This document shows, piece after piece, positions 45,816 through 53,165 of a DNA stretch of 64,000 nucleotides (its first letter is position 1; every line of letters begins with the position of its first letter). A program made the position numbers and the translations under genes. This stretch comes from a virus (taxonomy: Duplodnaviria > Caudoviricetes), in IMG/VR virus record IMGVR_UViG_3300028025_003274, positions 4,169 to 68,168 of that record. One strand, 5' to 3'. The notes below the pieces were generated by a model that was not told the origin of the DNA, searched no databases, and saw nothing but the letters and a program-made list of their open reading frames with translations.

Positions 45816-46224
45816 GGGCCTAACCGGTATCGATTCGTAATCGGAGGGTAGTACCACACGCAGAGACACCGTACTAGTTCTCTTTAAATCTGTACGAAAC
45901 AATAAATGACGAGATGTCAACTATGACCTTCGATGACCTTATGGCCTTCGTTGGTGCCGATGAAGCAACATTTGCTTAATCCGCCGAGGTGTCTACAACC
46001 TCGCTTCAAACAAAGTGGAACACAGAGTTTCCCCGATCGACTCATTAAATAAGGACTGGGGTGGTGGTTAGCTGTCTCCGGACATCCCCTTACTGATCAG
46101 CTTGCAGATCAAAACTACGGTGCAGATGACGGGGGATCTCCCTCTTGATTGTCAGTACTAAGCGTGTGAGATGCTGGTGCTATTGTTCATTGCGAAGACG
46201 TGGGTTCGAATCCCACTAGGTCCA
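45816..46224 (+). ncRNA. ssrA: tmRNA
   Basis: Acceptor GGGCCTA/TAGGTCC-A with G3:U, T-arm GTGGG-TTCGAAT-CCCAC, internal tag ORF after ATAAAT at 45908-45979; CCA not encoded. Confidence 0.92.
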
Positions 46225-46257
46225 CTCAAAGGTTTAGGTTAGGATTATGGTTAAAAC

Positions 46258-47048: not shown

Positions 47049-48161
47049 ATGAAGAATCTATCTAAAGAAGAACTACTTAGTAGGCTTGAAGCGATTAATC
47101 GTAGCAATGCTATCATCTATTTTGATCTAAATGGAAAAATTTTAGGCGTTAATGCTATTTTTCTACAAGCAATGGGATATGGTGTAGATGAACATGAGGA
47201 GCTTATTGGTAAGCACCATAGTATTTTTGTATGTGAAGATTATGCAAGGTCATTGGAGTATGAAAAGTTTTGGGATATATTAAGGAGTGGTAAATACTAT
47301 CAAGGAGAATTCGAAAGAAGGAAAAGAGATGGTAGTCTTATCAACTTACAAGCAACATACAATCCTATTTACGATGAGAGTGGTACTATTACTAAAGTAA
47401 TGAAAGTTGCTACTGACATTACTACGATTGTTAATAGTAAAAAACAGATAGATGCTATTAATAAGAGTACTGCAACTATTAGTTTTGATATGGATGGTTT
47501 TATTTTAGATGCCAATGCTGTGTTTTTAGAAACAATGGGTTATAAGGCTAATGAAAAAAACCAAGTAATAGGAAAGCATCATAGTATTTTTGTAACTTAT
47601 GAGTATTCAAAATCAGATGAGTATAGTAAGTTTTGGAAATCCTTAAAAAGTGGTAAGTTTTTTGATGGGATATTTGAAAGAAAAAGAGTAGATGGCTCTA
47701 CTATCTATTTACAAGCCACATATAATCCAGTCTTTGACAGCAAAGGAAACGTTACAAATGTAATTAAAATTGCTACTGACGTTACTGAAGCTGTCAATAG
47801 TAAAAACAAGATAGACACTCTCTCAAAAGATTTACAGATTGAGTTAGATAACTCCAAAAAACTTAAAGACGCAATTGAAGTAGAGAAGAACGCTGCGTTA
47901 AATGATTTGGATATAGTGATGAAGAAAAGCCAATCTGAGCTAATCAAGACGATTGTAAAAGTAGCATTAGGGGTAATTGTTGGTGTTGGATTAGTAACAA
48001 CTGTACTATATTGGATGGCAATTGTTACACAGAAGGATACCCAAATAATTGGATCAACTTGGTCAAACATGTTCAGCGTATTACTGACCAATGCATTTTC
48101 AATAGTTGGAACAATTATGGGTATAAAATATGCTACTCAAGATGATAAAAATAAAAAATAA
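47049..48161 (+). CDS. Tandem PAS-domain protein with coiled coil and two C-terminal TM helices
   Basis: Two repeats of AI..S.A.I.FD..G.IL..N..FL..MGY...IGKHHSIFV...FW..L.SG...G.FER....G..I.LQATYNP..D..G....V.K.ATD; no MCP or kinase output domain. Confidence 0.88.
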   Translation: MKNLSKEELLSRLEAINRSNAIIYFDLNGKILGVNAIFLQAMGYGVDEHEELIGKHHSIFVCEDYARSLEYEKFWDILRSGKYYQGEFERRKRDGSLINLQATYNPIYDESGTITKVMKVATDITTIVNSKKQIDAINKSTATISFDMDGFILDANAVFLETMGYKANEKNQVIGKHHSIFVTYEYSKSDEYSKFWKSLKSGKFFDGIFERKRVDGSTIYLQATYNPVFDSKGNVTNVIKIATDVTEAVNSKNKIDTLSKDLQIELDNSKKLKDAIEVEKNAALNDLDIVMKKSQSELIKTIVKVALGVIVGVGLVTTVLYWMAIVTQKDTQIIGSTWSNMFSVLLTNAFSIVGTIMGIKYATQDDKNKK

Positions 48162-48394: not shown

Positions 48395-48685
48395 ATGGAA
48401 AAGTTTTCAAAACAGTGGTGCGAGATATGGGACCCCTCTAGGCCTTATGACTTTGATATTGAGGCAATTGTAAAAGATATGCATAACGATAGGTACTATC
48501 CTATATTTTGTGAAGGGTTTGGTTTTAATTGTATTCATAAAGATGGTTATGATAACATATGGTTATCTTTTGGGTATGATAAAAATGGCAATAGTGCTGT
48601 CTGGAGAAGATATAAATCTTTAATAATAGAACAAGAGAAAAAAGCAACCAAGAATGAAAGTAGCAGTATTCAGCGACACTCATAA
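48395..48685 (+). CDS. Hypothetical protein
   Basis: FSKQWCE...DFDI...CEGFGF. Confidence 0.6.
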   Translation: MEKFSKQWCEIWDPSRPYDFDIEAIVKDMHNDRYYPIFCEGFGFNCIHKDGYDNIWLSFGYDKNGNSAVWRRYKSLIIEQEKKATKNESSSIQRHS

Positions 48686-49391
48686 TAAACATAAACAGGT
48701 AATACTCCCGGAGTGTGACATTGCTATATTTGGTGGAGATTTATCCTCTGTGGGACACAGGCACGAAGTAGAAAGCTTTCTTAATTGGTATGGTAAGCAA
48801 CACCAGTGTAAGCACAAGGTATTTATTGCTGGCAACCATGATAAATCATTTGATAAGAAATTCTTCCATAGCTTTGAAGATCATGACTTATTCAAACAAA
48901 ATGAACATCTAGGTAAGCCTGGGTGGTTAGTAGACATGCTGGATAGAGCCAAGGCTGTATTACATATACACTATCTTGAGAATAGTTCTGTCATAATAGA
49001 AGGTATAAAGATATGGGGTAGTCCTATTACTCCAAGCTTTTATAAGCAGTACTGGGCCTTCAATGCCGATAGGAACGAAGATATCCAATCTTATTGGAAT
49101 ACTATACCCAAAGATGCTAACATCGTTGTAACTCACGGACCAGTGCATGGCAAGCTAGATTTTATACCAGAGAGTAGCGAGTATGTAGGATGTATAGATC
49201 TTAAAGCTAAGATAGAGGAAATAAGCCCTATGATGTTTGTTTGCGGTCATATACATTCAGGAAGAGGTATATTTAGGACAGATAAAACATTTTATGTCAA
49301 CGCTTCTATAATGGATAATACCTATAACAAACAAGGAGATCCCATGGTTTTTAATGTAGATGTGGATAACATGTCTATGGATTTTAGATAA
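48654..49391 (+). CDS. Calcineurin-like metallophosphoesterase (MPPED/239FB-like)
   Basis: SDTH, GD, AGNHD, THGP, CGHIH. Confidence 0.9.
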   Translation: MKVAVFSDTHNKHKQVILPECDIAIFGGDLSSVGHRHEVESFLNWYGKQHQCKHKVFIAGNHDKSFDKKFFHSFEDHDLFKQNEHLGKPGWLVDMLDRAKAVLHIHYLENSSVIIEGIKIWGSPITPSFYKQYWAFNADRNEDIQSYWNTIPKDANIVVTHGPVHGKLDFIPESSEYVGCIDLKAKIEEISPMMFVCGHIHSGRGIFRTDKTFYVNASIMDNTYNKQGDPMVFNVDVDNMSMDFR

Positions 49392-49399
49392 AATATCTG

Positions 49400-49424
49400 T
49401 ACATTTGCTACAGATCTTTGAAAT
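49400..49424 (+). promoter_or_regulatory. Bacteroidota -7 element followed by boxA-like GATCTTTGAAA
   Basis: TACATTTG at 49400-49407, GATCTTTGAAA at about 49414-49423. Confidence 0.4.
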
Positions 49425-49452
49425 AAAAAAAGGGCCGATGTAAATCGACCCT
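49425..49452 (-). terminator. Terminator of the minus-strand holin-like gene
   Basis: Minus strand AGGGTCGAT-TTAC-ATCGGCCC-TTTTTTT. Confidence 0.7.
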
Positions 49453-49479
49453 AGTGTTTTAAAAATAAACTTGGTTATA

Positions 49480-49641
49480 CTACTTCTTTTTAGAAGCAAT
49501 AGACCAACCAGCACCGACAAGTGTCATGATGCCTCCGAGTACTTCTTGGAATAATACGTCATCAACTAAACCTTTTGCAACGATAACGCCACCAACAAAG
49601 GTTAATGCATGTCTGATGAGTCCTAATACTTGATCTTTCAT
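49480..49641 (-). CDS. 53 aa two-TM putative holin (not in ORF track)
   Basis: MKDQVLGLIRHALTFVGGVIVAKGLVDDVLFQEVLGGIMTLVGAGWSIASKKK; own late box on minus strand (49688-49695) and own terminator. Confidence 0.75.
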   Translation of the reverse strand: MKDQVLGLIRHALTFVGGVIVAKGLVDDVLFQEVLGGIMTLVGAGWSIASKKK

Positions 49642-49715
49642 TTTGATTGATTTAAGTTTAAAAAAAATTCATAACATTTGATCACATATAAATATCTGAA
49701 AAACCAAAATAACAA

Positions 49716-50086
49716 GCCCGAAGGCCACGGGATCGAAAACTCAGGAACGCCTCTCTAATTGCCTTGAGATAGTATCGACTAGGATTACGAAGCGCACCAA
49801 TCCTCTAAATCGTTAGTTAGCGGTGTAAAGCAACCCCCACTGGAGAATAGGATTGCAATTAAGGTTGATTGGGATAGGGTTGCAGGGTAATGCCTGACCT
49901 GACAGGTTAGAAATGCCAATCGTAAAAGCAGATGTCCACGCACCCATCTTCTGCTTTCCTAAACTTTTGACACGCACGACAACTTGGAATGGTGCACGCT
50001 GAACAAGCTCTGTGAACGAACACGAAGAATACCTCACGGTGCGTAGGTAAGTATCAAGTTCTTCTGACTGTGGGGAATAGACCCAC
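49716..50086 (+). ncRNA. Unannotated structured RNA(s)
   Basis: GC-richer non-coding stretch with many short perfect stems and crossing pairings (see findings); strand inferred from neighbouring tRNAs. Confidence 0.6.
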
Positions 50087-50091
50087 TCTAT

Positions 50092-50168
50092 AGTCGGGAG
50101 GCGTAATGAGGAATGGTTCCAAGTCCTTTAAAAAGGTTGCTTTACCGGTTCGATTCCGGCCCTGACTG
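50092..50168 (+). ncRNA. Degenerate tRNA-like element
   Basis: Acceptor AGTCGGG/CCTGACT-G, T-arm CCGG-TTCGATT-CCGG; no canonical D or anticodon arm. Confidence 0.65.
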
Positions 50169-50169
50169 C

Positions 50170-50285
50170 GAGGCCAAAGTAACTTAAAGAGAGGGCCAAA
50201 TGGAGAATCTCGTAAACTATTCTTAGTTATGACGAGTGCGACCGCCGGTAAAGATCTCAGCAAGTGACACACGGGGAGAGACCCG
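50170..50285 (+). ncRNA. Possible structured RNA between tRNA-like element and tRNA-Leu
   Basis: CTCGT/ACGAG and AACTA/TAGTT stems; ends in TGACA-CA-CGGG-GAGAGA-CCCG hairpin. Confidence 0.45.
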
Positions 50286-50289
50286 ACCA

Positions 50290-50374
50290 GCCTCGGTGGT
50301 GGAATTGGTAGACACGCAAGACTTAAAATCTTGTTCGCTGAAAGCGAGTACGGGTTCGATTCCCGTTTGAGGCA
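50290..50374 (+). tRNA. tRNA-Leu(TAA)
   Basis: Acceptor GCCTCGG/TTGAGGC-A, D-loop GGAATTGGTAGAC, anticodon arm CAAGA-CTTAAAA-TCTTG, long variable arm, TTCGATT. Confidence 0.93.
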
Positions 50375-50376
50375 CA

Positions 50377-51820: not shown

Positions 51821-52954
51821 ATGCAGAATCAAAACTCAGTATGTTACGTAGCCAGAATAAATGAAATCAAACCAATCGAAGGGGCAGACAAGATTGAACT
51901 AGCTGTTGTAGGTGGATGGAATTGTATTATTCAAAAAGGCCAATATGCAGAAGGAGGCTTAGTAGTTGTAGCGACTACTGACGCTGTTATACCTCAGGAA
52001 CTATCTGATGCCATGAATGTAACCAGTTACTTACGTAAAGGCCAGAGAGTCAGAACTGTGAAACTAAAAGGAGTATACTCAGAATGTTTAATTATTCCAT
52101 TTAGTATGACAGTGGGAAGGACTAAGGTTGTCAAGACTTGGAAAGAAGGAGATGATCTAATGGAAGCAATGGGCGTGTTCAAATATGAACCTCCAGTTAA
52201 AACAATATCATTAGGCGGTGGTAGGAAGATAAAGTACAAAGACAATCCTAACTTTGGTGTTTACTACAAGTTTCCAAACATTAAGAACGTGCCTGATATG
52301 TTCACTGGAAGTGATCTTGTAGAGATTACAAGAAAGATACATGGCACCAATGCCAGATACGGTATTGTAAAAAAGAATAAGCTTTCTATTTGGGATAAGA
52401 TAAAAAGATTCTTTGGAGATCGTTGGGTAGGGTATGAGTTTGTTGTAGGCTCACACAACGTGGAGAAAGGATCTGATTCACAAGGATACTACGATACTAA
52501 TGTATGGTATGAGATTGCAGAGAAGTATAACCTAAAAGAGAAAATGTGGAACATAGCTAAGACTAGAGGTGTGGATGATATTGGTTCTGGAATGGTGTTA
52601 TATGGAGAAATATACGGAGCTGGCATTCAGAAAGGGTATGACTATGGGCTTAGTGAGATTAAGTTTGTTGGGTTTGATGTTATGATCAATGGTAAATATG
52701 TAGACACCCAAAAAGCTAAATACATTATAGAAGCGCACTTTAGAGTACCATATGTGCCTATTCTATACGTAGGATTCTGGTCTAAGGAAACCCAGGATTC
52801 ATATGTGATTGATAATTTTATCGAGGGTACTAAAGTGCCTCATGAAGGAGTTGTTGTGAAGGAAGTATCAGGAGACAGAAGAAAGATTGCTAAGGTTATT
52901 AATCCAGCATATCTTATCTTTGGGGAGAAGCATGATATTGGTGACTCTCATTAA
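51821..52954 (+). CDS. ATP-dependent RNA ligase (DRB0094/Rnl2-like, N-terminal OB domain)
   Basis: IEGADKIELA OB domain; motif I KIHGTN, YGEIYG, FDV, EGVVVK, AKVIN. Confidence 0.88.
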   Translation: MQNQNSVCYVARINEIKPIEGADKIELAVVGGWNCIIQKGQYAEGGLVVVATTDAVIPQELSDAMNVTSYLRKGQRVRTVKLKGVYSECLIIPFSMTVGRTKVVKTWKEGDDLMEAMGVFKYEPPVKTISLGGGRKIKYKDNPNFGVYYKFPNIKNVPDMFTGSDLVEITRKIHGTNARYGIVKKNKLSIWDKIKRFFGDRWVGYEFVVGSHNVEKGSDSQGYYDTNVWYEIAEKYNLKEKMWNIAKTRGVDDIGSGMVLYGEIYGAGIQKGYDYGLSEIKFVGFDVMINGKYVDTQKAKYIIEAHFRVPYVPILYVGFWSKETQDSYVIDNFIEGTKVPHEGVVVKEVSGDRRKIAKVINPAYLIFGEKHDIGDSH

Positions 52955-53062: not shown

Positions 53063-53165
53063 AGTCAGGTGGCGGAATTGGTAGACGCATAGGTTGAAAT
53101 AGGATTTGCTTTAAAAAGCTACCTAACTCATTAAGGGTGTACAGGTTCGAGTCCTGTCCTGACTG
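53063..53165 (+). ncRNA. Class II tRNA-like RNA with 26-nt anticodon loop
   Basis: Acceptor AGTCAGG/CCTGACT-G, Leu-type D-arm GGCGGAATTGGTAGACGC, stem TAGGT/ACCTA, variable arm ACTC/GGGT, T-arm ACAGG-TTCGAGT-CCTGT. Confidence 0.8.

What the first reader, a model, noticed from the sequence alone, without database searches (positions are those of the whole stretch)
49716..50086. Unannotated, highly structured non-coding RNA array with crossing pairings
Seen: about 370 nt of GC-richer DNA with no credible ORF. Stems: CCCG/CGGG (49717/49728), CTCAGG/CCTTGAG (49740/49762), AGGATT/AATCCT (49781/49799), GCAACCC/GGGTTGC (49830/49877), AAAGCAG/CTGCTTT (49925/49951), AACTTG/CAAGTT (49981/50055), TACCT/AGGTA (50030/50045). 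Crossing pairings: TAATTGC/GCAATTA (49756/49855), GATTGG/CCAATC (49867/49916) and a 7-bp loop-loop match ACGCACC/GGTGCGT (49938/50038). CGCAC recurs three times, twice in hairpin loops. I do not recognise RNase P, SRP, 6S, group I/II intron or small ribozyme cores. Established: large structured RNAs such as GOLLD and ROOL occur in phage tRNA regions. Inference: one large or several tandem novel ncRNAs.
Basis: partly seen in the sequence, partly recalled or inferred. Interest (0 to 1): 0.82.

Follow-up and report, generated by a model that had tools for sequence, protein, structure and literature searches.

The report
Phage tRNA-operon island of small RNAs
A GC-rich gap in an uncultured phage genome holds a row of separate, conserved, folded small RNAs sitting among its tRNA genes; none is in the RNA family catalogue, and one seems built to pair with a copy of itself.

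Summary
The non-coding, GC-richer block is real but wider than reported: 49716-50289, ending at tRNA-Leu. It is not one knotted RNA. It is a row of modules that occur separately, shuffled, duplicated or split by tRNAs or genes in related uncultured phages. The modules are a 5' domain (49716-49860), "motif 1" (49861-49960), module B (49968-50064), a leader hairpin, a tRNA-like element C (50092-50168) and module D (50169-50289). Each of the four RNA modules shows compensatory base changes well above slid and shuffled controls. None matches Rfam 15, even at E<=10.

Two long-range stems are contradicted by covarying local stems. Two further pairings lie in an optional insertion. One crossing pair is not conserved, and the loop-loop match is not kept by compensation.

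New findings:
- B's first hairpin loop carries a hexamer that differs between relatives yet stays self-complementary, which suggests a kissing-loop homodimer.
- In other phages B is embedded in a tRNA-Leu-like frame. That frame carries hypervariable inserts, is present in at least 120 viral contigs, and occurs up to 15 times per record.

Function is unknown. The likeliest reading is stable small RNAs cut out by tRNA-processing enzymes, as with T4 rnaC/rnaD.

The parts
49716..49860 (+). 5' domain (A5'). Hairpins: 49717-49720/49728-49731; 49802-49808/49817-49823; 49830-49837/49850-49856. Optional insertion at about 49756-49790.
   Evidence: 11 unique homologues. 7 of 20 predicted pairs change on both sides. 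98.2% of cells are paired, against 30-45.5% when the 3' partner is slid. The insertion is present in 4 of 11. An RNA-library contig of 211 nt spans 49729-49939.
49861..49960 (+). Motif 1, a three-way junction. P1 is 49862-49864/49958-49960. P2 is 49866-49872/49916-49922 and encloses a variable insert. P3 is 49925-49932/49950-49957, with a 17-nt loop at 49933-49949.
   Evidence: P2 and P3 covary (covariation score 0.141 against 0.047 in shuffles, 0 of 500 shuffles as high). U-G pairs fit the + strand only. 63 of 143 unique copies have an ARAGORN tRNA within 10 nt. There are tandem duplicates in 5 loci.
49968..50064 (+). Module B: a conserved single-stranded 5' stretch (49968-49978), hairpin 1 (49979-50013) and hairpin 2 (50024-50064, with an inner stem 50031-50034/50045-50048 and a 10-nt loop).
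   Evidence: 39 unique homologues. 10 of 18 pairs change on both sides. 97.7% of cells are paired, against 15.7-39.7% when slid. The pattern occurs in 45 viral contigs. B is embedded in a tRNA-Leu-like frame in 11 unique sequences of other phages.
49992..49997 (+). Self-complementary hexamer in the apical loop of B hairpin 1.
   Evidence: 20 of 30 unique apical regions carry a perfect self-complementary hexamer near the loop centre. 11 hexamers are listed, two of which overlap in one sequence. Shuffles give 4.3 on average, at most 11, and 0 of 2000 reach 20. The 6 sequences that fail even when G-U pairs are allowed all keep a 4-base self-complementary core.
50065..50091 (+). Leader hairpin (50070-50074/50082-50086) ahead of the tRNA-like element.
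   Evidence: The stem differs but still pairs in L003, as read in the alignment. A like hairpin with a purine-rich loop ends 12 nt or less before 33 of 247 unique frame 5' ends. The window holds a second one before 53063.
50092..50168 (+). tRNA-like element C: a 7-bp acceptor stem (50092-50098/50161-50167), a T arm (50145-50148/50156-50159, loop 50149-50155) and discriminator G50168. It has no recognisable anticodon arm.
   Evidence: Read from the sequence. ARAGORN does not call it, and the Rfam tRNA model does not call it even at E<=10. A pattern finds 6 unique relatives of the same type, and nhmmer adds a hit in L116.
50169..50289 (+). Module D: a structured RNA that begins right after the 3' end of C and ends at the first base of tRNA-Leu.
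   Evidence: 17 homologues, after one spurious row was dropped. 9 of 26 pairs change on both sides. 100% of cells are paired, against 22-48% when slid. The pattern occurs in 18 viral contigs.
50290..50375 (+). tRNA-Leu(taa), which closes the block.
   Evidence: ARAGORN. Rfam tRNA at 56.9 bits.
53063..53165 (+). Second tRNA-Leu-like frame with a non-tRNA insert. It belongs to the same frame family that carries B in other phages.
   Evidence: Rfam tRNA at 42.9 bits, but no ARAGORN call. Listed as a frame member. Its 5' part matches tRNA-Leu genes of two cultured phages at 93.8% over 31 nt.

Best explanation
The block is an island of separate small structured RNAs inside the tRNA operon of a large uncultured myovirus. 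In this phage they lie head to tail: 5' domain plus motif 1, then module B, a leader hairpin, a tRNA-like element C, module D, and tRNA-Leu.

Shown here:
- Each module is a conserved family with compensatory changes.
- The modules occur independently, duplicated, or separated by tRNAs or genes in relatives.
- Module ends coincide with tRNA or tRNA-like ends.
- None matches an Rfam family.

Inferred:
- The operon is transcribed as a precursor. RNase P cuts at the 5' ends of C and of tRNA-Leu (50091/50092 and 50289/50290), and tRNA 3' processing cuts after C.
- This would release stable RNAs of about 375 nt (5' domain + motif 1 + B + leader, unless it is cut further), 77 nt (C) and 121 nt (D), much as T4 releases rnaC and rnaD from its tRNA cluster.
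- B forms a homodimer through the self-complementary hexamer in its first hairpin loop.
- The RNAs act in trans during infection. The target is unknown. Host takeover or counter-defence is a guess.
For: Modularity:
- nhmmer splits the block into parts that match different places in relatives.
- L002 has four protein genes between motif 1 and B.
- In L225 an ARAGORN tRNA-Leu(cag) sits exactly between B and D, and D ends at tRNA-Leu(taa). In L212, B ends one base before a tRNA-Leu.
- D starts right after the tRNA-like 3' end in all 17 homologues.

Covariation:
- Motif 1, B, D and A5'.
- Slid-partner and shuffle controls are far lower in every case.

tRNA neighbourhood of motif 1:
- 46 of 143 unique copies have a tRNA starting 4-10 nt downstream, and 36 have one ending 0-8 nt upstream.

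Not a known family:
- Rfam.
- No blastn match in 50,697 GenBank phage records.
- No paper text holds the core strings.

Dimer signal:
-.

Presence in RNA libraries:
- A freshwater metatranscriptome holds a 211-nt contig over 49729-49939, which bridges the A5'/motif-1 junction.
- It also holds a 94-nt contig of depth 90.4 over 49923-49968.
- None of the four RNA runs covered the flanking protein genes at 49300-49623. This is a weak hint only.
Against: - No direct evidence of transcript ends, of stability or of processing. The RNA-library data are assembled contigs, which may include DNA, and some come from relatives.
- No promoter-like site was found upstream on the + strand.
- In this window motif 1 is not followed by a tRNA, so 5' domain, motif 1 and B may stay joined as one RNA.
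- The single-sequence fold energy is unremarkable.
- The homologue sets were gathered with exact sequence patterns, which hides variation in the pattern itself.
- 6 of 30 unique B loops keep only a 4-base self-complementary core.
- Nothing here indicates a function.
Confidence: 0.68

Rival explanations
1. The block is one large ornate RNA of about 375-575 nt, with a single global fold held by long-range and crossing pairings, of the GOLLD/ROOL kind.
For: The modules are contiguous here, with no tRNA between 49716 and 50091. Motif 1 is followed directly by B in several relatives too: L235, L309 and L353, and L212. GOLLD and ROOL lie near phage tRNA islands (passages read). One RNA-library contig bridges the 5' domain and motif 1.
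Against: There is no GOLLD or ROOL match even at E<=10. The proposed long-range stems are not conserved: one is present in 1 of 11 relatives and another has 43.6% of cells paired. The loop-loop match is not kept by compensation (6 of 13). The modules occur apart or in another order in relatives. No column covaries with the variable loop letters of motif 1 apart from a stem pair that tracks the subfamilies.
Confidence: 0.12
2. The modules are cis-acting spacer structures of the tRNA operon. They would guide or time processing by RNase P, RNase E or RNase Z, or protect the precursor, with no function of their own once released.
For: The positions are strictly inter-tRNA, and module ends abut tRNA ends. 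A leader hairpin recurs before tRNA-like frames.
Against: The conservation is far beyond what a spacer needs: an invariant 17-nt loop frame, pseudoknot-like invariant stretches in D, and a covarying self-complementary loop in B. Many motif-1 copies lie at the end of an array ahead of a protein gene rather than between tRNAs. Most phage tRNA arrays in the related loci lack these modules: the motif-1 model hit 6 of 100 sources.
Confidence: 0.15
3. The block is decayed tRNA genes and neutral filler, or hidden small protein genes.
For: Element C and the frames are tRNA-derived. Short ORFs exist on both strands.
Against: Compensatory changes keep helices in all four modules. Indels between relatives are not in multiples of three. 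U-G pairs fit the + strand only. The longest ORF is 74 aa on the opposite strand.
Confidence: 0.03

Closest known systems
Phage T4 rnaC and rnaD (species 1 and species 2 RNAs)
   Same: These are small RNAs annotated as 'small, stable RNA' that lie inside a phage tRNA gene cluster and abut tRNA genes (T4 record). rnaC ends in a T-arm-like stretch, as element C does here. That their function is still unknown and that RNase P processes them is recalled, not from a call.
   Different: There is no detectable similarity. The motif-1 model found nothing in the T4 locus, and blastn of the block found nothing in GenBank phages. This phage is not T4-like: it has a family-A-type polymerase, a DnaB helicase and GroEL. 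There are more modules here, of other shapes.
GOLLD and ROOL large ornate RNAs
   Same: They are phage or prophage RNAs near tRNA islands, of unknown function, with intermolecular kissing loops that include self-interacting ones (passages read). Module B shows a covarying self-complementary loop.
   Different: There is no covariance-model match. GOLLD and ROOL are single RNAs of about 580 to more than 800 nt, whereas this is a set of modules of about 100-145 nt that occur apart.
Engineered 'tRNA scaffolds' for expressing recombinant RNA, and viral tRNA-linked small RNAs (gammaherpesvirus 68 tRNA-miRNA units). Both are recalled; one scaffold paper, PMC3753655, was seen only in the search listing.
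   Same: In relatives, B replaces the anticodon and variable arms of a tRNA-Leu-like frame whose acceptor, D and T arms are kept.
   Different: These are natural and phage-encoded, with many different inserts in one frame. In this window B itself is unframed.
Retroviral dimerisation-initiation hairpins (recalled)
   Same: A hairpin loop with a six-base self-complementary sequence that differs between lineages yet stays self-complementary.
   Different: The context is unrelated, and dimer formation was not tested here.
Candidate structured RNAs 'DNAVirus_N' predicted from IMG/VR (PMC10690425; abstract and passages read)
   Same: The data source is the same, and that paper reports tRNA-like candidates. 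Motif 1, found in at least 119 contigs, may well be one of its 8,495 unnamed candidates.
   Different: The main-text passages I read give no description of these modules.

Membership tests
GOLLD (Rfam) / ROOL (Rfam) | Match to the family covariance model | tested here: not met
   There is no match in 49716-50289 at gathering score or at E<=10 with permissive filters.
GOLLD / ROOL | One contiguous RNA conserved as a unit | tested here: not met
   The modules match separate places in relatives, and protein genes or tRNAs lie between them.
T4 rnaC/rnaD-type small stable RNAs of phage tRNA clusters | Lies in a phage tRNA cluster, bounded by tRNA genes | tested here: met
   tRNA-Leu abuts D. Relatives hold the modules inside arrays of up to 24 tRNAs. 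For motif 1, 63 of 143 unique copies have a tRNA within 10 nt.
T4 rnaC/rnaD-type small stable RNAs of phage tRNA clusters | Sequence or structure homology to T4 rnaC or rnaD | tested here: not met
   The motif-1 model has no hit in the T4 locus L247. There is no blastn match to GenBank phages. Models of B, D and A5' were not run against T4.
T4 rnaC/rnaD-type small stable RNAs of phage tRNA clusters | Accumulates as a stable processed RNA | not testable with these tools
   Only assembled contigs of RNA libraries were available, and these cannot show ends or stability.
tRNA (element C, 50092-50168) | Cloverleaf with an anticodon arm, recognised by tRNA finders | tested here: not met
   ARAGORN does not call it, and there is no Rfam tRNA hit at E<=10. 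Only the acceptor stem and T arm are readable.
Kissing-loop dimerisation hairpin | Self-complementary hexamer in a hairpin loop, kept self-complementary through sequence change | tested here: met
   20 of 30 unique loops have one, against 4.3 expected, with 0 of 2000 shuffles reaching 20. 11 hexamers are listed.
Kissing-loop dimerisation hairpin | The RNA forms a dimer | not testable with these tools
   This needs a native gel, SEC-MALS or cryo-EM.
tRNA-Leu-like frame with insert (seen here; no published name found) | Shared acceptor + D-arm 5' half and T-arm + acceptor 3' half around a non-tRNA insert | tested here: inconclusive
   B homologues are framed in 11 unique sequences of other phages. 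In this window B is not framed. Element C is a variant frame, and 53063-53165 is a typical one.
23S rRNA GTPase-associated-centre mimic (my own lead for motif 1) | Detectable likeness to helices 43-44 of 23S rRNA | tested here: not met
   The motif-1 model scored E. coli 23S at noise level, and elsewhere in the molecule. The best local alignments lie elsewhere and are no better than shuffles.

The most novel reading that the evidence does not exclude
This phage lineage uses a tRNA-Leu-derived frame as a natural 'tRNA scaffold'. Under this reading the host's tRNA-processing and CCA-adding enzymes cut out, cap and stabilise a changing repertoire of structured cargo RNAs, up to 15 frames per genome. 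The modules of this block (B for certain; motif 1, D and the 5' domain as unframed cousins) would be such cargo. Some of them would assemble into RNA-only dimers or larger complexes through covarying self-complementary loops. That would make them small modular counterparts of the GOLLD and ROOL cages. Because the frames keep the Leu-type D arm and discriminator A in 176 of 199 cases, they might even be charged with leucine.
Probability: 0.3. Interest if true: 0.9.

Novelty: new variant of a known kind. Interest (0 to 1): 0.74.

Why it matters
Small stable RNAs in phage tRNA clusters have been known since T4, and their purpose has not been explained (recalled). GOLLD and ROOL show that tRNA-island RNAs of phages can build RNA-only assemblies, but their function is also unknown.

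This block adds four compact, widespread and well-covarying families, of 100-145 nt. That size is easy to synthesise and probe. One of them carries a clear evolutionary signature of self-pairing. The block also links these RNAs to a large family of tRNA-Leu-like frames carrying hypervariable inserts.

If the frames are natural expression scaffolds, two things follow. Phages would have arrived at a trick that was engineered independently in the laboratory. And the inserts would form a ready-made library of phage RNAs whose targets, whether host defence, translation or RNA repair, can be screened.

For annotation, the lesson is that gaps in phage tRNA arrays should not be written off as spacers or failed tRNA calls.

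Tried and rejected
- **Motif 1 as a mimic of the 23S rRNA L11/GTPase-associated centre.** I saw a likeness from memory and fetched E. coli rrlH to test it. The covariance model and local alignment both gave only noise. Rejected.
- **T4-type late promoter upstream of the block.** TATAAATA at 49687 looked like one. The octamer is not enriched ahead of + strand genes and the phage is not T4-like. Dropped.
- **GATG/CATC extension of the motif-1 P3 stem.** Natural variants change one side only. Rejected.
- **Kissing between the motif-1 loop and the B loop.** Not kept by compensation.
- **Pseudoknot between B's 5' stretch and its hairpin-2 loop.** Both sides are near-invariant: 1 of 42 differs, without compensation. 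Untestable here.
- **A partner for the four variable loop letters of motif 1.** The only mutual information found was with a stem pair that tracks the subfamilies.
- **Cultured relatives.** No blastn match was found for the block or for motif 1. The RNA ligase next door is at most 28.5% identical to any GenBank phage protein among the 15 rows listed.
- **Prokaryote genomes.** Only 2 short contigs in two Bacteroidota MAGs hold motif 1. That is too little to name a host.
- **Promoter and terminator scan.** Nothing useful on the + strand.
- **Parts of the block without cover in the four RNA runs** (50110-50271). No inference is drawn from this.
- **Literature searches** found no description of these RNAs. 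One search, on T4 species 1 RNA, found no paper at all in the held library.

Full report
**What is there**

The window is part of a 68-kb viral contig, estimated to be 40% complete. The phage is a myovirus with a tail sheath, a family-A-type DNA polymerase, a DnaB helicase, ribonucleotide reductase and GroEL. It also has its own tmRNA at 45816-46227.

Between a holin-family gene on the minus strand (49480-49641) and tRNA-Leu(taa) (50290-50375) lies a stretch of GC 0.465-0.51 in a genome of about 0.30-0.37. It has no credible ORF. So the reported feature is real, but it runs to 50289, not 50086.

Rfam 15 has nothing inside it at gathering score or at E<=10. Taken as a single sequence its fold energy is ordinary: z = -1.22 on the + strand and +0.98 on the minus strand. 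Only comparison with relatives could decide the question.

**Relatives show a modular block**

I fetched 126 loci around relatives of the two flanking enzymes, a metallophosphoesterase and an RNA ligase. I then searched them with the 591-nt block.

- The first half matched L002 at one place, and the second half matched 2.5 kb further on.
- Between those two places lie four protein genes: a YceI-like protein, a histidine kinase, a response regulator and a membrane protein.
- L003 and L004 hold only the second half.
- L015 to L018 hold only about 100 nt of the first half, inside arrays of 16-24 tRNA genes.

Searching part by part, and then with exact patterns across IMG/VR, defined these units:

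- a 5' domain (49716-49860);
- motif 1 (49861-49960);
- module B (49968-50064);
- a leader hairpin (50065-50091);
- a tRNA-like element C (50092-50168);
- module D (50169-50289).

Module borders coincide with tRNA borders.

- In L225 an ARAGORN tRNA-Leu(cag) fills the slot of C, and D ends where tRNA-Leu(taa) begins.
- In L212, B ends one base before a tRNA-Leu.
- D starts directly after the tRNA-like 3' end in all 17 homologues.

**Motif 1**

It is absent from 50,697 GenBank phage records. It occurs in only two short Bacteroidota MAG contigs among the genomes of 185,579 species.

Ninety unique copies align to a three-way junction. P2 shows GC/AU/GU and UA/CG exchanges. P3 shows up to four pair types at one position.

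On a second set, chosen by a different anchor, 96.3% of cells pair, against 38-57% with slid partners. The covariation score is 0.141, against 0.047 in shuffles, and 0 of 500 shuffles are as high. P1 (3 bp) hardly varies, so it is only weakly supported.

The 17-nt loop has an invariant frame around four variable letters.

Of 143 unique copies, 46 have a tRNA starting 4-10 nt downstream and 36 have one ending 0-8 nt upstream. Five loci carry two copies in tandem. The model found 6 copies in 100 unselected sources and none in the T4 tRNA cluster.

**The 5' domain, B and D**

| Module | Homologues | Pairs changed on both sides | Cells paired | Cells paired when slid |
|---|---|---|---|---|
| 5' domain | 11 unique | 7 of 20 | 98.2% | 30-45.5% |
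| B | 39 unique | 10 of 18 | 97.7% | 15.7-39.7% |
| D | 17 (one spurious row dropped) | 9 of 26 | 100% | 22-48% |

In each case no shuffle, of 300, reached the observed number of doubly changed paired cells.

D also has invariant stretches that RNAalifold pairs over a long range, which may be a pseudoknot with the loop of its first hairpin. Invariance leaves this untested.

U-G pairs in motif 1 and in B fit the + strand only.

Four of the ten survive, and they fall in three groups.

- CCCG/CGGG, AAAGCAG/CTGCTTT and GATTGG/CCAATC are supported by covariation.
- TACCT/AGGTA is invariant, but it was fixed by my search pattern.
- GATTGG/CCAATC is nested rather than crossing once the false partner of GCAACCC is removed.

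The others do not survive.

- GCAACCC pairs locally with 49850-49856, and that pairing covaries. Its proposed partner at 49877 exists in 1 of 11 relatives.
- AACTTG/CAAGTT has 43.6% of cells paired in 39 homologues. Two local stems with covariation replace it.
- The 7-bp loop-loop match between motif 1 and B is not maintained. Of 13 loci with both loops, 6 carry a change on one side only.

**A self-complementary loop in B**

The apical loop of B's first hairpin carries, at one position, a hexamer that differs between relatives but is its own reverse complement. In the window it is 49992-49997.

- Of 30 unique apical regions, 20 have a perfect one near the loop centre. Eleven hexamers are listed, two of which overlap in one sequence. 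Shuffles give 4.3 on average, at most 11, and 0 of 2000 reach 20.
- With G-U pairs allowed the count is 24 of 30, against 10.3 expected.
- The remaining six all keep a four-base self-complementary core.

A six-base palindrome cannot fold on itself. A DNA-binding protein would not tolerate eleven different sites. The simplest reading is therefore an intermolecular loop-loop (kissing) contact between two copies of B. This is an inference from sequence, and no dimer has been shown. Intermolecular and self-interacting kissing loops are what hold GOLLD, ROOL and OLE assemblies together (passages read).

**B inside a tRNA-like frame**

In 11 unique sequences from other phages, B is not free. It replaces the anticodon and variable arms of an RNA whose acceptor stem, D arm and T arm are those of a tRNA-Leu.

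The same frame recurs with many unrelated inserts.

- There are 199 unique framed RNAs in 154 loci, 83-220 nt long.
- ARAGORN calls a tRNA in only 32 of them.
- The discriminator is A in 176.
- Single records hold 2, 4, 7, 12 and 15 copies, with 0 in the reversed-pattern control.
- The frame's 5' part matches annotated tRNA-Leu genes of two cultured phages.

The window has one typical member at 53063-53165. Rfam scores it as tRNA at 42.9 bits, and ARAGORN does not call it. Element C is a variant with its own small family: 6 unique sequences by pattern, plus an nhmmer hit in L116.

**Expression**

One search of public runs found 6 RNA libraries holding small shares of the stretch. All four runs laid are kept only as contigs.

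- One freshwater metatranscriptome has a 211-nt contig on 49729-49939, with 6 differences and 2 gaps, so it comes from a close relative.
- The same run has a 94-nt contig of depth 90.4 on 49923-49968. It continues into a second motif-1-like copy, so it comes from a relative with a tandem pair.
- tRNA-Leu and tRNA-Met are covered.
- The protein genes at 49300-49623 are not covered in any of the four runs.

Contigs cannot show ends, strand or level, and DNA can be present in RNA libraries. This is no more than a hint that motif 1 is abundant in RNA.

**How it most likely works**

Shown: separate conserved structured modules, tRNA-bounded, on the + strand.

Inferred: co-transcription with the tRNAs. 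RNase P would define the 3' ends of the RNA upstream of C and of D. tRNA 3'-end processing would define the 5' end of D. The excised RNAs would be stable because they are compact.

In this phage the first product may be a composite of about 375 nt (5' domain + motif 1 + B + leader), because no tRNA interrupts it. Its parts are independent domains rather than one knot.

B probably dimerises.

What the RNAs do is open. They are flanked by a metallophosphoesterase and an RNA ligase, enzymes of the kind used in tRNA repair. A role in the contest over tRNAs is therefore a reasonable guess and nothing more.

**Comparison and novelty**

- The closest known things by position are T4 rnaC and rnaD. By neighbourhood and self-association they are GOLLD and ROOL. 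Membership in either fails.
- No paper in the held library contains the core strings, and six keyword searches found no description.
- A catalogue of 8,495 unnamed candidates predicted from the same database (PMC10690425; abstract and passages read) may include some of these modules.
- I therefore rate the block as a new variant of a known kind: structured RNAs of phage tRNA islands. It has two features I could not find described. One is the covarying self-complementary loop. The other is the tRNA-Leu-like frame family with hypervariable inserts.

**Limits**

- All homologue sets were gathered with exact patterns or from protein-anchored loci (500 loci, 4.8 Mb in the end). Variation inside the patterns is therefore hidden, and the counts are lower bounds.
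- Related sequences are not independent, so shuffle counts are not probabilities. The slid-partner controls keep relatedness and are equally clear.

Noticed in passing
window 53063-53165; loci L336, L315, L254, L344, L399 and many others: There is a family of tRNA-Leu-like frames: shared acceptor, D and T arms, and discriminator A in 176 of 199. They carry unrelated inserts of about 30-120 nt or more. I found 199 unique members in 154 loci, and ARAGORN calls only 32. There are up to 15 per viral record, and an exact 23-mer of the frame is in at least 120 viral contigs.
   Followed up: partly
window 45816-46227: The phage encodes a tmRNA (Rfam 67.4 bits) with the predicted tag DEMSTMTFDDLMAFVGADEATFA. 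Relatives L228 and L212 carry tmRNAs with similar tags that end in ADYAVAA.
   Followed up: no
window 48654-49391 and 51821-52954: A calcineurin-like metallophosphoesterase and an RNA ligase with an OB-fold domain flank the RNA island. This is a pairing of the kind used for RNA or tRNA repair. The ligase is at most 28.5% identical to any cultured-phage match among the 15 rows listed.
   Followed up: partly
window + strand: 4163, 5364, 7255, 8304, 17571, 42839, 45794 (complement of the TATAAATA matches): The octamer TATTTATA lies 2-21 nt upstream of several + strand gene starts and 15 nt upstream of the tmRNA. It may be part of a phage promoter or leader. Counting both strands, there are 21 matches against 12.6 expected.
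   Followed up: no
L002 7389-9824: A related phage carries a YceI-like gene, a histidine kinase, a response regulator and a membrane protein. They are inserted between motif 1 and module B.
   Followed up: no
L222 4007-4272, L236 1703-1968, L154 390-651, L169 3590-3848, L186 8034-8292: Motif 1 occurs as two directly adjacent copies. The second scores lower (59-75 bits against 100-118).
   Followed up: partly
window 47049-48161: A phage gene encodes two PAS domains followed by a predicted membrane-spanning tail. The tail resembles the end of the L002 9264-9824 product.
   Followed up: no
L248, L249 (genome contigs): The only prokaryote-genome hits to motif 1 are two short contigs (593 and 1687 bp) binned into Bacteroidota MAGs. 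They hold full-length copies at 84.9 and 102.3 bits. This may be a hint about the host, or a binning artefact.
   Followed up: partly
L221 4530-7011 and many motif-1 loci: In a large subgroup, motif 1 closes the tRNA array about 28 nt before a small conserved gene whose product begins MVQDVY or MKQEVY. In L221 a 734-aa ORF follows that gene.
   Followed up: no
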